Origin: the human T2T-CHM13v2.0 reference genome, Homo sapiens | Assembly (NCBI GenBank): GCA_009914755.4 | Contig: CP068257.2 | Coordinates: 384,001-448,000, forward strand | Direction of reading: 5' to 3' | Length of the DNA stretch: 64,000 nt | Shown here: piece after piece, positions 1 to 64,000 of the stretch | How the letters are laid out: every line of letters begins with the position of its first letter | Position numbering within the stretch: the stretch's first letter is position 1 | Notes under the pieces: generated by a model | What the model was told of the DNA's origin: nothing | What the model saw: only the letters and a program-made list of their open reading frames with translations | Databases searched by the model: none | Program-made: the position numbers and the translations under genes

Positions 1-660
1 ATCCTTGTAGACAGGACATCAAGCCAGTCATTCTAAGGGGCTTTGTATTGGTGCTATAAAGTCAACCTCAATTCCTTAAAGTGGTCTGGTTGTATCTGCC
101 ATTCAAGTTAAAGCCTTGATAAAACAAACAGTGTCTCCAATTGAATCTTGTTACCAAAAACAGATTCTTATTGAAATTATGCAAATAATTATATTGCCAT
201 AATTTAAGAATGCTCACGAATGGCTTCTGAATTCTGGAGAAATCTGCTAGAGAGACAGATAAATGGCTCAAATTTTTGTTCACAATGTAGTTTATCTAAT
301 ATATTGTAAGTTAAAAATAGCTGAAAAGAAAAAAAATTCTTGACTTTGGAAAACAAAACATAAAGAGAATCAACAATGTTTCCAATGGAAAGGCCATGAA
401 TAAAATCTTTTCCTTCTTTTATAAGTTCAGTCCCATGTAACTACAGCTTGTTCTGCTTGATTTCAAATAGCAATTCTCATTCAGTTTTTTGTGGTCTGCT
501 TGATTTCAATTGGAAATTCTCATTCAGCTTTTTAGAGTCCTGGAAGATTTTCATAGTCCAATGGTATGATCCCCAAAGTTATCTGAAACCATATTTAAGA
601 GAACTTGTCAGAGTCCTTTCCATTAAAAGTAATTTAGATGATAGCTGATTGTAAAGACTT

Positions 661-981
661 TTTTTTTTTTTTTGAGACACGGTCTGGCTCTATCACTCAG
701 GATGGAGTGCAGTGACATGATCTTGGTTCACTGCAATCTCTCCCACCCAAACTCAAGCCATCCTCCTACCTCAGCCTCTGAAGTAGCTGGGACCATAGGC
801 ATGCACCATCATGCCTGGCTAATTTTTGTATTCTTGTAGAGAGAGGATTTTACCATGTTGCCCAGGCTGCTTTAAAACTTCTGAGTTTAAGCAATTCACC
901 CACCTCGGCCTTCCAAAGTGCTGGGATTTTTACACGCGCGAGCCACTGTGCCTTGCACGGCCTTCAGCACCGCGCCTGGCC
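661..981 (-). mobile_element. Alu SINE (full length, antisense)
   Basis: Poly-T at 661 followed by the reverse complement of the Alu 3' end (GAGACACGGTCTGGCTCTATCACTCAGGATGGAGTGCAGTG). Ends in ...GCGCCTGGCC, which is the reverse complement of the Alu 5' GGCCGGGCGC. Confidence 0.9.
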
Positions 982-1352
982 TGTAAAGGGTTTTAGAGAA
1001 GAACTTTAAACAATCACCGTGGATGACAAAAACTTAGAGGAGCCTTTGGTTAAAATCCAGTGGAAGTTCTCAACTGGTGAGGAAATTTAGTTATTTCTAT
1101 TATATGTAGCATTTTAAGATAACAGCCAGAATCATGACTGACGGCAACACATCAGATCCATCAGACTTCCACAAATTTTATACAATCTTTAGAATATTTA
1201 TATTAATAATATATCTATACATATACAACTTTAGAGAATATTTAACATCATCAAAATTATCACTGATACCATATCAGATTTTTATAATTTATATAACATT
1301 TAAAATATTTATATTAATAATATACCTATAAATGTAACCAAAAGAAGATTTA

Positions 1353-1649
1353 GGCCAGGCACAGTGGCTCATGCCTGTAATCCCAACACTTTGGGAGGCC
1401 AAGTTGGACAGATCATCAGAGGTCAGGATTTCGACACCAGCCTGGCCAACATGGAGAAATCTTGTCTCTACTAAAAATACAAAATTAGCCGGGCGTGGTG
1501 GCATGTGTCTGTAGTCCCAGCTACTTGGGAGGTTGAGGCAGGAGAATCGCTTGAACCTTGGGGCAGAGGTTGCAGTGAACCTAGATCATGCCACTGCACT
1601 CCAGCCTGGGTGACAAAGCAAGATTCTGTCTCAGAGAGAAAAAAAAAAG
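1353..1649 (+). mobile_element. Alu SINE (sense)
   Basis: Starts GGCCAGGCACAGTGGCTCATGCCTGTAATCCCAACACTTTGGGAGGCCAAG. Has an A-rich linker and a terminal poly-A at 1640-1649. Confidence 0.92.
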
Positions 1650-60300: not shown

Positions 60301-61900
60301 CTGAAAGTGCCTACTTAAAATTCTGCATGAACAGTTTTATTGAAAAAATATGTAGACAAGCCATTAATTATACACAGTGATTTGGAACAAATTCTTACAA
60401 GAAGCATAGCGTGTCTTCCATTAACTGTATACAATTTATAAAAAGTTACTGAAAGTCTTCCTGAAGTTAAACAATAAATCTTTTAAATTTAACCACTGTG
60501 CTCCCTCAAAGGTAATTTTTTCTTTATGACACTCACTTAGGGGATACAGTCAGATCTCAGCCTACTTTAAACAATTAGGCAGTATTTTTAGTGCACTTTT
60601 CTGTTTGTTAAAAAGCTAGTTGTCAAGAATAAGTTGCTCATATATCTTCCTCAATTACTTTTTATTTTGTTTTGTAATTATTATTCTATTTTGGTTTTCC
60701 TTTAGAATTGTGAAATATCTTGAATCAGAAATTGCAGAGAATATATAAATGAGTAAGAATGCACTCTGCAATCAAACTAGATCTCGAAAGTGTTTTGTTG
60801 TAGTTTATACCTTGAATTCGAAGGCCATTCTATACAAGGCACTTGAAAAATTTTCAAGCTCATATATTTCATAATAGTACAGAATTTATTGTTCTTTTAT
60901 TTGCAAGGAGATAGACCAGATAAAATGTCACTTTATTTTTTACAATGTTGACTTTGATATTCTAAACTTGTCAGTTTATACAGATTAATGAAGACTCCAT
61001 ACATGTAAAATTCACTATATATTTTTTTCTGGTATGAGAGTCTAAACAAATAGTAACAACATACCCAAACAGGTAAAGTAAAAATATACAATAGCTTGAC
61101 AAAAAAAAAGAAGAAAAAATAAACCCCTATACATTCCTTAACATTTAAATCTTTGAGGACCAAATTGGATTCAAAAGAAACATTTCTGGTGGGCAGGGAA
61201 AGGGCTAAAAATCTAAAGTATATAATAAGTAAATTCCTCATTGGTATAAAATATATGACCAGCATGACATTTCAATACATGTTCAAGTTTTCTGAAAAAA
61301 GTTCTAGGATAATAGGATTTCAACTTTTGATTCTACAGATATCATTCTTGTGATTGGTATGGGAGAATCATCCTCTTCATGTATTAGTGGATTCAAATGA
61401 AAAAAAATCAGGCAGCTAGTTCCTTTCCAAGAAGCCTTAGAGATTGTTGTACATAAAAATAGCCATATTTCTGATTCAAATTTTAATTAGAGAATTCTCT
61501 TTATTCCCTCTTCGGCATAAAATTATGCACTGGCACTCTGCTCTGCAGACAAGTAAAACTTCTTATCTGTCATAATTTGAGATACCCAAGACTCAGAAGA
61601 TATTATCTCCTAGCTGAAAGTCCCCAAAAACTTCTCAAGACAAAAAAAAACAAAAAGTTAAATACACAGAGATAGAGTATAAAACAGTGGTTACCAGGGG
61701 CTGGGGGTGAGAAGAGAAAATGGAGAGAGAGAATTCAAAGGATGCAAAGTTGCAGATATGTAGAATTAACAAGTTGAGGGATCTAATATACAACATGAGG
61801 ACTGTAGGTATTAATATTTATTGTATATGGCATTTAACTAAAAGGGTAGTTTGTAGGTACTCTTTCCTCACACACATATCCAAAAGAAAGGTAACTGAGA

Positions 61901-62249
61901 TTTTCAAAGGGAATGCTTCCAGGTTTTGCCCATTCAGTATGATATTGGCTGTGGGTTTGACATAAATAGCTCTTATTATTTTGAGATACATCCCATCAAT
62001 ATCTAATTTATTGAGAGTTTTTAGCACGAAGGTTGTTGAATTTTGTCAAAGGGCTTTTCTGCATCTATTGACATAATCATGTAGTTTTTGACGTTGGTTC
62101 TGTTTGTATGATGGATTATGTGTATTGATTTGTGTATGTTGAACCAGCCTTGCATCCCAGGGATGCAGCCCATTTGATCATGGTGGATAAGCTTTTTGAT
62201 TTGCTGCTGGATTCGGTTTGGTAGTATTTTATTGAGGATTTCGCAATCC
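61901..62249 (-). mobile_element. L1 ORF2 fragment (antisense), ending exactly at the satellite boundary
   Basis: TTTTCAAAGGGAATGCTTCCAGGTTTTGCCCATTCAGTATGATATTGGCTGTGGGTTTG...CCTTGCATCCCAGGGATGCAGCCCATTTGATCATGGTGGATAAGCTTTTTGATTTGCTGCTGGATTCGGTTTGGTAGTATTTTATTGAGGATTT parallels 41270-41650 of the full-length L1 above. Homology stops at 62249 and is followed by (CCACT/CCATT)n. Confidence 0.88.
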
Positions 62250-64000
62250 ACTCCACTCCACTCCACTCCATTCCATTCCATTCCATTCCATTCCATTCCA
62301 TTCCATTCCATTCCATTCCATCTCATTCCATTCCATTCCATTCCATTCCATCTCATTCCATTCCATTCCCTTCCACTCAACTCCACTACATTCCACTCTA
62401 CTCCAGTCCACTACACTCCATTCTATTCCATTCCATTTCATTCCAATCCATTCCATTCCATTCTTTTATTTCGTCAGGAACTCACTCCGTCACCCAGGCT
62501 GGAGTGCAGTGGCACAATGTCAGCCCACATTTCATTTCAACGTGCCATTCGATTCCATTCCATTCCATTCCATTCCATTCCATTCCACACCACTCCACGA
62601 AACTCCACTCTACTCCACTCCACTGCATTCCTTTCCATTACATCCCATTCCATTCCTCTTCATTCCACTATACTCCACTACACTCCACTCTACTCCACCC
62701 CACTCCACCCCACTCCATTCCATTCCACTCTAATCTGTTCCATTCCTTTCTTTCGATAGGATCTCACCTGTCAACCAGGATGGAGTGCAGTGGCACAATC
62801 TCAGCTCACATTTCATTTAACCATTCTATTCCATTCTATTCCATTCCATTCAACTACACTCCTCTCCACTCCACTCCACTCCATTCCATTTGAATCCAAT
62901 CCACTCAACTCCTTTCCATCCCATCCCATTCCATTCCACTCCACTCCATTCCACTTCACTCCATTCCATTCCACTCCATCCCATCCCATTCCATTCCACT
63001 CCATTTCACTCCACTCCAATCCACTGCATTCTACGCCGTTCCATTCCATACCATTCCATTCTATTCCTTTCTGTCGACAAGATCTCACTCTGTCACCCAG
63101 GATGGATTGCAGTGTCATAATCTCAGCTATCATTTGATTTCATGATTCCTTTCCATTCCATTCCATTCCATTCCATTCCATTCCATTCCATTCCATTCCA
63201 TCCCTTCCCATTCCACTCCATTCCACTCCACTCCTCTCCATTACATTCCATTCCATTCCACTCCAATCCACTACATTCCACTCCACTCCACTCCATTCCA
63301 TCCCATTGAATTCCACTCAATTCCACTCCACTCCACTCCACACCACTTCTCTCCAATCAATTCCATTCCACTCCACCCCACTCCATTCCACTCGACTCCA
63401 CTCAAATCCAGTCCACTCCACTCCACTCCACCACACTCCATTCCATTTCATTCCACTCCATTCCATTCCATTCCTTTCTATTCCTTTCTTTCGACAGGAT
63501 CTCAATCTGTCACCCAGGCTGGCGCGGAGTGGCACTATCTCAGCTCACATTTAATTTCACCATTACATTCCATTGCATTCCATTCCATTATATTCCATTC
63601 AATTCCATTCCATCCCATTTCATTCCAGTCCTATGCACTCCACTCCACTCCACTGCACTCCATTCCATTCCACTCAATTCCATTCAATTCCATTCCACGC
63701 CACTCCAATCCACTCCACTCCATTCCATTCCATTCCACTATACTCCAATCCAATCCACTCCTCTCCACTCCACTCCACTGCATTCCATTCCATTCCATTC
63801 CATTCCATTCCATTCCATTCCATTCCATTCCATTCCATTCCATTCCTCTCTTATAAATTCCATTCCTTTCCTTCGACAGGATCTCACTTTGTCACCCAGG
63901 CTGGAGTGCAGTGGCACAGTCTCAGCTCATATTTCATTTCATCATTCCATTCAATACCATTCCATTCCTTTCCATTCCATTCTATTCCATTACACTAAAA
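62250..64000 (+). repeat. Pentameric (CATTC)n = (ATTCC)n satellite of HSat3 type, with a periodically embedded ~80 bp Alu-derived module; extends beyond the window end
   Basis: Long runs of CATTC and variants (CACTC, CAATC, CATCC). They are interrupted at 62463-62548, 62748-62822, 63067-63146, 63485-63562 and 63869-63947 by TTTCGACAGGATCTCACTCTGTCACCCAGGCTGGAGTGCAGTGGCACAATCTCAGCTCACATTTCATTTCA-like segments, which match the antisense Alu 3' monomer. Confidence 0.9.

What the first reader, a model, noticed from the sequence alone, without database searches (positions are those of the whole stretch)
1..64000. Window is repeat-rich primate genomic DNA; no prokaryote-style system present
At least 17 Alu copies, multiple L1 copies including one full-length, a HERV-K-like complex and an HSat3-type satellite occupy well over half of the window. 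The longest ORFs (293 aa, 204 aa, 195 aa) are L1 ORF2 pieces, and the 187 aa ORF is a translation artefact of the pentamer satellite. No operon-like gene array, CRISPR array, tRNA or rRNA is visible. The hint that an undescribed system may be here is not supported by the sequence. The genuinely interesting content is structural: a nested ERV, a satellite boundary and retrotransposition footprints.
Basis: partly seen in the sequence, partly recalled or inferred. Interest (0 to 1): 0.5.

Follow-up and report, generated by a model that had tools for sequence, protein, structure and literature searches.

The report
Ordinary repeat-rich primate genomic DNA
This 64-kb window is ordinary primate (most likely human) DNA made largely of dead mobile elements, and it ends at the edge of a pentamer satellite; it holds no bacterial-style gene system and nothing new.

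Summary
I found 17 Alu copies and one full-length but dead 6.1-kb L1 at 39222-45351 (minus strand). There are also at least eight L1 fragments. Two HERV-K-like proviral remnants lie at about 6930-12897; the LTR of one interrupts the gag-pro region of the other. A 1.75-kb (ATTCC)n satellite runs off the window end. The 293, 204 and 195 aa ORFs are L1 ORF2 pieces, and the 187 aa ORF is L1 antisense plus a read-through of the satellite.

There is no tRNA, no Rfam family and no CRISPR-like array. The 150 longest stop-to-stop ORFs (at least 50 aa) outside the repeats I mapped reach no Pfam family cut-off. CpG observed/expected is 0.18 and there is no CpG island. A 25-kb segment has no counterpart in the phage or plasmid collections. 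Its one E. coli hit is a stray Alu.

Two points are not verified. I could document repeats over only about 36% of the window, not "well over half", because no RepeatMasker library was available. Species and chromosomal placement could not be tested. The satellite carries five copies of one Alu fragment amplified with the array. T2T papers describe this for HSat3 on the Y and acrocentric chromosomes. Verdict: already known, low interest.

The parts
667..6929 (.). Alu cluster: ten Alu copies (667-952 -, 1353-1633 +, 1779-2052 -, 3238-3526 -, 3597-3888 +, 4367-4638 +, 4924-5205 +, 5235-5521 +, 6308-6593 -, 6717-6929 -). A (TG)n microsatellite lies at 5524-5577.
   Evidence: blastn with AluSx/AluY consensus written from memory, 75-92% identity over 213-292 bp. 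TRF sees the 4924-5521 pair as a 316-bp period.
6930..10841 (-). ERV-B, a HERV-K-like (class II) proviral remnant. 5' LTR about 10841-10335 (TGTTGGGAAC...TCTCAGCA). gag ATG at 10174, without an MA domain. CA 9777-9180, NC zinc finger 8982-8883, dUTPase 8817-8511, protease 8340-8112, partial RT 7764-7545, RNase H 7518-7314, weak IN C-terminus 7080-6996. An AluY cuts it off at 6929.
   Evidence: Pfam on stop-masked frame translations; sequence reading; PDB search gives HERV-K HML-2 Gag at E = 1e-34; 41-47% identity to HML-2 Gag written from memory.
10842..12897 (-). ERV-A, a second HERV-K-like proviral remnant. Short 5' LTR 12897-12611 (TG...CA, AATAAA inside). Lys-type PBS 12593-12610. gag MA 12513-12315, CA, NC zinc finger about 11280-11175. 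The start of the pro/dUTPase frame is interrupted at about 10842 by the LTR of ERV-B.
   Evidence: PBS match with 3 mismatches, 0.01 expected by chance; Pfam Gag_p10, Gag_p24, Gag_p24_C and zf-CCHC_5; gag DNA only 68-71% identical to ERV-B gag.
12897..13683 (+). Old internal L1 ORF2 fragment (L1 positions about 4038-4832) abutting the ERV-A LTR. It has no 3' end.
   Evidence: 70% DNA identity to the full-length L1; tblastn E = 3e-29.
17950..18224 (-). Alu
   Evidence: 89% to AluSx
20479..21183 (.). Old L1 pieces: 20666-21183 on the plus strand (ORF2 C-terminus) and a weak minus-strand match at 20479-20652.
21945..22280 (-). Weak L1 endonuclease-like remnant
   Evidence: tblastn E = 4e-4, 30% identity
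22642..22933 (-). AluY-like copy
   Evidence: 90.6% to AluY
26819..27082 (+). L1 3'-end fragment
   Evidence: 87-89% to the other L1 3' ends
30319..30480 (-). Alu right-arm fragment
   Evidence: 84.6% to AluY positions 127-288
32969..33187 (-). MIR-like SINE remnant
   Evidence: 61% over 236 bp to a MIR consensus written from memory, E = 1e-10
37225..37502 (-). Alu
39222..45351 (-). Full-length (6.13 kb) but inactive L1. 5' UTR start at 45351. ORF1 piece 43550-43981, EN piece 42379-42966, RT piece 40599-41480, ORF2 C-terminal piece 39437-40051. A-tail ends at about 39222. Candidate 8-bp TSD AAAAATTA.
   Evidence: 5' end motif with 2 mismatches, 0 expected by chance; Pfam Transposase_22, Exo_endo_phos_2 and RVT_1; flanks read; up to 91% identity to primate L1 ORF2 fragments.
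46709..47161 (+). L1 3'-end fragment (455 bp)
   Evidence: 88.8-91.5% to the other copies
48780..49498 (.). Two Alu copies (48780-49059 +, 49239-49498 -)
51921..52015 (-). 95-bp L1 3'-end fragment
   Evidence: 89.5%
55244..55531 (+). Alu with an 11-bp candidate TSD, CCCAGATTCTG
55532..57322 (+). 5'-truncated L1 (3' 1.77 kb)
   Evidence: 90.7% to the full-length copy over 1766 bp; tblastn E = 6e-97
61900..62246 (-). Internal L1 ORF2 fragment (L1 positions about 3711-4052) truncated on both sides. Its right end is the satellite junction.
   Evidence: 88% over 342 bp; sequence
62247..64000 (+). (ATTCC)n/(ACTCC)n pentamer satellite of HSat2/3 type, running off the window end. Five copies of one ~52-bp Alu 3'-end fragment lie at about 62465, 62752, 63066, 63484 and 63872, spaced 281-417 bp.
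   Evidence: TRF period 5, 312 copies. ATTCC and ACTCC rotations cover 68% of bases; ATTCCATTCC occurs 62 times inside and 0 outside. The five fragments share the same breakpoints.

Best explanation
The window is a stretch of catarrhine primate nuclear DNA, most likely human. It has been built up by successive retrotransposition and by rearrangement next to a satellite block.

Shown:
- Alu SINEs and L1 LINEs of several ages are scattered through it. One L1 is full-length, but its ORFs are broken by stops and frameshifts.
- Two different HERV-K-superfamily proviruses lie head to tail on the minus strand. The 5' LTR of one sits inside the gag-pro region of the other.
- At the right end, an internal L1 fragment abuts a pentamer (ATTCC)n satellite. 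The repeating units of that satellite carry an amplified Alu fragment.

Inferred:
- The order of events.
- Loss of both ERV 3' halves by later deletion or rearrangement.
- A pericentromeric, Y-linked or acrocentric short-arm location.

Nothing in the window works as a system. It is decayed mobile-element and satellite sequence with no detectable protein-coding gene.
For: - Alu: 17 copies.
- L1: domains, 5' end, A-tail and TSD; further L1 fragments.
- ERV: retroviral gag, dUTPase, PR, RT, RNase H and IN domains, Lys PBS and LTR termini. Closest solved structures are HERV-K Gag.
- Satellite: pentamer composition and shared Alu-fragment breakpoints.
- Literature: T2T papers state that HSat3 units often include TE fragments, and that HSat3 is intermingled with Alu fragments on the Y and acrocentric chromosomes.
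- Primate origin: L1 RT relatives up to 91% identical; the few that carry a source name are primate.
- Vertebrate signature: CpG observed/expected 0.18, GC 37%, no CpG island.
- Public data: a 4.4-kb Logan contig is 99.9% identical to 18194-22628.
- No non-repeat genes: no tRNA, Rfam family or CRISPR-like array. The 150 longest ORFs outside the mapped repeats reach no Pfam cut-off.
- ORF density: ORFs of at least 100 aa cover 26% of the window, against the 85-90% I would expect of prokaryotic DNA from general knowledge. The excess over shuffles lies in L1, ERV and satellite.
- No prokaryotic counterpart: segment 13700-38699 has no phage or plasmid match, and one 50-mer has no exact match in the GTDB genomes.
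Against: - Species and chromosome were not determined, because no primate assembly could be searched.
- Only about 36% of the window was positively assigned to repeats. About 64% is unclassified low-GC non-coding DNA, and its content (old repeats, regulatory DNA, lncRNA exons) is untested.
- Public contigs matching the unique part range from 99.9% down to 97.5% identity. The locus may therefore be multi-copy, or some samples may come from other apes.
- Alu, MIR and HML-2 query sequences were written from memory. The matches are real, but the family labels rest on my recall.
- The database checks were partial: one 25-kb segment against phages, plasmids and E. coli, and one 50-mer against the GTDB genomes.
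Confidence: 0.95

Rival explanations
1. A prokaryotic, phage or plasmid system (operon, defence island, CRISPR array) is hidden in the parts of the window not covered by recognisable repeats.
For: About 64% of the window is not positively classified. One 54-aa ORF at 25469-25630 (minus strand) matches Pfam RapH_N at E = 9.4e-6.
Against: - The RapH_N score (26.0 bits) is below Pfam's cut-off of 27. The ORF is an isolated stop-to-stop fragment in AT-rich DNA with no TPR domain after it.
- None of the other 149 ORFs scanned reaches a family cut-off.
- ORF length outside the repeats is near the shuffle expectation.
- No tRNA, Rfam family or CRISPR-like repeats.
- No phage or plasmid match; the single E. 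coli hit is an Alu sequence in a patchwork region of one assembly.
- CpG depletion to 0.18 is the signature of a CpG-methylated vertebrate genome rather than of a prokaryote; this comparison rests on general knowledge.
Confidence: 0.01
2. The 172-aa ATG ORF at 19273-19791, the longest ORF outside the repeats, is a real primate-specific protein-coding gene.
For: It is intact, starts with ATG, and exactly the same product was called on 15 short contigs from independent public runs. It is longer than the mean longest ORF in shuffled sequence, about 171 aa.
Against: - No Pfam family.
- In the 97.5%-identical metagenome contig SKDY01002496.1, all 6 of 6 nucleotide differences inside the ORF change the amino acid, so there is no sign of purifying selection.
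- There is no CpG island or other gene signal nearby.
- The exact matches are a by-product of a look-up that finds only identical products.
Confidence: 0.03
3. The window is from a non-human ape or an Old World monkey, not from human.
For: - No human assembly could be searched.
- Public contigs carrying the same ORF differ from the window by 0.1-2.5% and from each other by up to about 2%. That is the range of great-ape divergences, as I recall them.
- The window's L1 and ERV-antisense ORFs are not on record in the protein collection.
Against: - Three independent runs give contigs 99.8-99.9% identical in the core. From general knowledge, most public runs and host-contaminated metagenomes are human.
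- HSat3 intermingled with Alu fragments is described for the human Y and acrocentric chromosomes.
- The graded identities are explained equally well by paralogous pericentromeric duplications within one genome.
- Either way the finding ('primate') stands.
Confidence: 0.12

Closest known systems
Alu SINEs (AluS/AluY) and L1PA-type LINE-1 of catarrhine primates
   Same: - Alu: dimeric ~280-bp units with A-rich tails, 75-92% identical to the consensus.
- L1: 6.1 kb with a 5' UTR start motif, ORF1 (Transposase_22), ORF2 EN and RT domains, an A-tail and a short TSD.
- The L1 fragments include three 5'-truncated 3' ends.
   Different: Nothing unusual. All ORFs are broken, so the copies are inactive. 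Two L1 pieces (12897-13683 and 61900-62246) are internal fragments without 3' ends. Retrotransposition alone cannot produce that, so a later insertion or rearrangement is implied.
HERV-K superfamily (class II, betaretrovirus-like human endogenous retroviruses, HML groups)
   Same: LTRs with TG...CA ends; a Lys-type PBS; gag with p10, p24 and two CCHC fingers; dUTPase in the pro frame; aspartyl protease; RT, RNase H and IN. The capsid is closest to the solved HERV-K HML-2 Gag structures.
   Different: - Only 36-50% amino-acid identity to HML-2 Gag, so neither element is HML-2. The exact HML group was not determined. From memory the ERV-B LTR looks like MER9/HML-3, which is untested.
- Both elements lack env and a 3' LTR within the window.
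- ERV-B lacks MA and part of RT.
Human satellite 3 (HSat3) arrays intermingled with Alu fragments, described on the Y and acrocentric chromosomes (T2T-Y preprint 10.1101/2022.12.01.518724; T2T centromere preprint 10.1101/2021.07.12.452052)
   Same: (CATTC)n-derived pentamers on one strand, with an Alu-derived fragment recurring inside the array as part of longer, irregular repeat units.
   Different: - Only the first 1.75 kb of the array is in the window.
- The subfamily (HSat3 A/B types, or HSat2) could not be assigned.
- The CAACCCGA(A/G)T motif that I recall as typical of classical satellite 3 is absent.
- ACTCC variants make up a third of the pentamers.

Membership tests
Alu SINE | About 280-300 bp dimeric sequence similar to the 7SL-derived Alu consensus | tested here: met
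   17 copies, 75-92% identity over 160-292 bp. The consensus was written from memory.
Alu SINE | A-rich tail and flanking target-site duplication | tested here: inconclusive
   An exact-match TSD search found plausible TSDs for only a few copies, e.g. 11 bp at 55244-55531 and 9 bp at 1353-1633. Older copies are too diverged for this crude test.
LINE-1 (full-length element) | About 6 kb with 5' UTR, ORF1, ORF2 (EN + RT), 3' UTR and poly(A) | tested here: met
   39222-45351: 5' motif, Transposase_22, Tnp_22_trimer, Exo_endo_phos_2 and RVT_1, A-tail.
LINE-1 (full-length element) | Intact ORF1 and ORF2 (retrotransposition competence) | tested here: not met
   The ORF1 piece is 143 aa. ORF2 is split into pieces of 195, 293 and 204 aa.
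HERV-K superfamily provirus | gag-pro-pol with dUTPase in pro, betaretrovirus-like CA and NC, and a Lys PBS | tested here: met
   Pfam domains; PBS at 12593-12610; PDB best hits are HERV-K Gag.
HERV-K superfamily provirus | Two LTRs flanking the internal region, env gene present (complete provirus) | tested here: not met
   No second copy of either LTR in the window. No match to HML-2 Env written from memory, and no env-type Pfam domain among the ORFs scanned.
HERV-K(HML-2) | High similarity to HML-2 Gag and LTR5 | tested here: not met
   Gag identity is only 36-50%. The LTRs are 285 and about 505 bp and start TGTTGGGA.
Human satellite 3 (HSat3) | Tandem array derived from the (CATTC)n/(GGAAT)n pentamer | tested here: met
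   TRF period 5, 312 copies. ATTCC rotations cover 46% of bases; with ACTCC, 68%.
Human satellite 3 (HSat3) | Subfamily-specific k-mers and chromosomal location (HSat3 versus HSat2; A/B subfamilies) | not testable with these tools
   No subfamily library or human assembly was available. The CAACCCGA(A/G)T motif is absent.
Prokaryotic operon / CRISPR / defence system | Dense same-strand array of intact conserved ORFs, or regularly spaced 20-50-bp repeats | tested here: not met
   ORFs; repeats; RNA genes.

The most novel reading that the evidence does not exclude
The right-hand end may be the boundary of a not-yet-catalogued HSat3-type nested tandem repeat. Its units would be 281-417 bp of ATTCC/ACTCC pentamers plus a fixed 52-bp Alu fragment, seeded next to a broken L1. 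The unique 13-23 kb segment may belong to a family of 97.5-99.9% identical pericentromeric or acrocentric segmental duplications. Even if so, this is a variant of structures that the T2T consortium has already described.
Probability: 0.1. Interest if true: 0.12.

Novelty: already known. Interest (0 to 1): 0.04.

Why it matters
It matters mainly as a clean negative. The window should be dropped from a search for undescribed prokaryote-style systems. Its only mild interest is structural: an ERV-in-ERV junction, internal L1 fragments that mark rearrangements, and a satellite edge whose repeat unit captured an Alu fragment. All of these are kinds of feature already documented in complete human assemblies.

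Tried and rejected
- **RapH_N match.** A Pfam screen of the 150 longest stop-to-stop ORFs (at least 50 aa) outside the mapped repeats gave one apparently significant hit (RapH_N, E = 9.4e-6). I traced it to a 54-aa ORF at 25469-25630 on the minus strand. It scores 26.0 bits against a cut-off of 27 and sits in AT-rich DNA with no neighbouring domain. Rejected as chance.\n- **172-aa ORF at 19273-19791 as a gene.** Rejected: 6 of 6 substitutions in a 97.5% relative are nonsynonymous, and there is no family match.\n- **LTR partners and env for the two ERVs.** None found.\n- **Species and placement.** Exact-product look-ups returned only short Logan and ENA contigs. 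Three other ORFs were not on record. The sample accessions appear in no searchable paper. The one metagenome scan gave a single 9.5-kb contig at 94-97.5% identity.\n- **Raising the repeat fraction.** Consensus sequences written from memory added one MIR. They gave no THE1, alpha-satellite or SVA-specific hits.\n- **Rfam at gathering thresholds.** Nothing found, not even 7SL for the Alus.

Full report
**Task.** The finding is a whole-window summary. It claims repeat-rich primate DNA (at least 17 Alu, several L1 including one full-length, a HERV-K-like complex and an HSat3-type satellite) and no prokaryote-style system. I checked each element, looked for anything else in the window, and tried to place the sequence.

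**General properties.** GC is 30-44% per 2-kb bin, 37% overall. CpG observed/expected is 0.18, and no 500-bp window looks like a CpG island. From general knowledge, that level of CpG depletion is the signature of a CpG-methylated vertebrate genome. ARAGORN finds no tRNA. Rfam finds no family at gathering score. Only 15 ORFs of at least 120 aa exist.

**Alu.** blastn with AluY and AluSx consensus sequences (written from memory) gives 17 copies of 160-292 bp at 75-92% identity. Ten are packed into 667-6929. It also gives three of the short matches inside the satellite. The count of 'at least 17' is exact.

**L1.**
- The 293, 195 and 143 aa ORFs carry the RVT_1, endonuclease and L1 ORF1 (Transposase_22 plus trimerisation) domains.
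- The 204 aa ORF has no Pfam hit. It lies in the same element, and its product matches the other L1 copies in the window.
- The canonical L1 5' end (GGAGCCAAGATGGCCGAATAGGAACAGCTCC) occurs once, at 45318-45348 on the minus strand, with 2 mismatches.
- The element ends in an A-run at about 39222. AAAAATTA is present on both flanks.
- The copy therefore spans 39222-45351 (6.13 kb). It is full-length but has broken ORFs.
- Its RT piece has thousands of close relatives, up to 91% identical. The few that carry a source name are from Homo, Pan, Macaca and Symphalangus.
- Self-comparison at DNA and protein level adds fragments at 12897-13683, 20479-21183, 21945-22280, 26819-27082, 46709-47161, 51921-52015, 55532-57322 and 61900-62246.
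- Two of these (12897-13683 and 61900-62246) are internal pieces with no 3' end. This implies a later insertion or rearrangement rather than simple 5' truncation.

**ERV complex.** I scanned stop-masked translations of the minus strand of 6930-12900 against Pfam. They show two gag regions in series:
- The first has Gag_p10 at 12513-12315, then p24 and a CCHC finger.
- The second has p24 at 9777-9180 and a CCHC finger at 8982-8883.
- After the second come dUTPase (8817-8511), protease (8340-8112), a partial RT (7764-7545), RNase H (7518-7314) and a weak integrase C-terminal match (7080-6996).

A Lys-type primer-binding site (TGGCGCCCAACATGGGAT) lies at 12593-12610. It directly follows a 285-bp TG...CA LTR that contains AATAAA.

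At about 10842 the first element's pro/dUTPase frame ('PGEPPKKVPTGV...') stops. An LTR of about 505 bp begins there (TGTTGGGAAC...GGTCTCAGCA, about 10841-10335) and is followed by a gag ATG at 10174. The two gag regions are only 68-71% identical in DNA. Each is 36-50% identical in protein to HML-2 Gag written from memory. The second capsid's best solved relatives are the HERV-K HML-2 Gag structures (E about 1e-34), against 1e-11 to 1e-14 for the other retroviral capsid and Gag-Pro-Pol entries returned.

So these are two different HERV-K-superfamily proviruses, neither of them HML-2. One sits inside the other. No 3' LTR, no env and no continuation of the interrupted element are present. An AluY cuts the complex off at 6929. 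'HERV-K-like complex / nested ERV' is therefore supported, with the caveat that both elements are truncated.

**Satellite.** TRF reports a period-5 array from 62247 (312 copies) that continues to the window end. ATTCC rotations cover 46% of the 1754 bases; ATTCC plus ACTCC cover 68%. ATTCCATTCC occurs 62 times inside the array and never outside it.

The array begins inside an L1 ORF2 fragment. This explains why the 187-aa ORF starts with L1 antisense ('[13 protein letters not shown]') and continues as '(IPFHS)n'.

Five copies of the same ~52-bp Alu 3'-end fragment recur every 281-417 bp with identical breakpoints. They were therefore amplified with the array and not inserted independently. [quoted passage not shown] The T2T-Y preprint states that some HSat3 arrays are intermingled with Alu fragments on the Y and acrocentric chromosomes. 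I could not assign the subfamily.

**Search for anything else.**
- Outside the repeats I mapped there are 180 stop-to-stop ORFs of at least 50 aa. I scanned the 150 longest against Pfam.
- Only sub-threshold matches appeared. The best, RapH_N, traced to a 54-aa ORF scoring 26.0 bits against a cut-off of 27, in AT-rich DNA. I rejected it as chance.
- ORFs of at least 100 aa number 49 and cover 26% of the window, against 13 ORFs and 7% in composition-matched shuffles. The excess lies in L1, ERV and satellite.
- No CRISPR-like spaced repeats exist.
- The longest non-repeat ORF (172 aa, 19273-19791) has no family. In a 97.5%-identical relative, all six substitutions within it are nonsynonymous. 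It is not under coding constraint.

**Origin.**
- megablast of 13700-38699 finds nothing in the phage or plasmid collections.
- In E. coli genomes it finds one 250-bp Alu-like stretch, inside a patchwork of partial genes in one assembly.
- A unique 50-mer has no exact match in the GTDB species genomes.
- The 172-aa product is on record on 15 short Logan or ENA contigs. The six shown match the window at 98.4-99.9%.
- One metagenome contig (SKDY01002496.1) matches 13258-22688 at 94-97.5%.
- Over a common 1.3-kb core, the window and three of these contigs differ by at most 0.23%. Four further variants differ from that group and from each other by about 0.5-2.0%.
- That pattern fits paralogous segmental duplicates, as expected near satellites, or samples from other apes. 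I cannot tell which.

**What is not confirmed.** The repeats I could document cover about 36% of the window (small additions). 'Well over half' may well be true once old non-coding repeats are called, but I could not show it. Species (human versus another catarrhine) and chromosome are also untested.

**Verdict.** The content is of already known kinds and the interest is very low.

Noticed in passing
window 62451-63957: Five copies of the same ~52-bp Alu 3'-end fragment, with identical breakpoints, recur every 281-417 bp inside the pentamer satellite. The fragment was amplified as part of an irregular longer repeat unit and was not inserted five times.
   Followed up: yes
window 13258-22688; loci L001-L007: This non-repeat segment occurs in public assemblies as several distinct variants. 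Three are within 0.23% of the window over a common 1.3-kb core. Four more differ from that group and from each other by about 0.5-2.0%. Whole-contig identities range from 99.9% to 97.5%, falling to 94% at one contig's end. This suggests paralogous segmental duplications, or contigs from other apes.
   Followed up: partly
window 12897-13683 and 61900-62246: Two L1 pieces are internal ORF2 fragments lacking a 3' end. One abuts the ERV-A LTR and the other the satellite. These junctions mark insertion or rearrangement events rather than ordinary 5'-truncated retrotransposition.
   Followed up: partly
window 59390-59566 and 60136-60312: A 177-bp direct duplication (85-91% identical) with 746-bp spacing, in otherwise unclassified AT-rich DNA. 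Its nature is unknown; it could be a small LTR pair or a local duplication.
   Followed up: no
window 12864-12902: A 19-bp tandem duplication (TGTTGGGAGAAAAGCTGAG x2) lies exactly at the outer edge of the ERV-A 5' LTR, where it meets the L1 fragment.
   Followed up: no
L008 (NZ_CP121294.1 4798222-4798472): A RefSeq 'complete' E. coli chromosome carries an unannotated 250-bp Alu-like sequence (86% identical to the window's Alus) among a string of partial, frameshifted genes near the record end. This looks like human contamination or misassembly in that record.
   Followed up: partly
window 25469-25630 (-): A 54-aa stop-to-stop ORF scores 26.0 bits to Pfam RapH_N, just under the cut-off of 27. 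It is isolated and sits in AT-rich DNA, so I judged it a chance match.
   Followed up: yes
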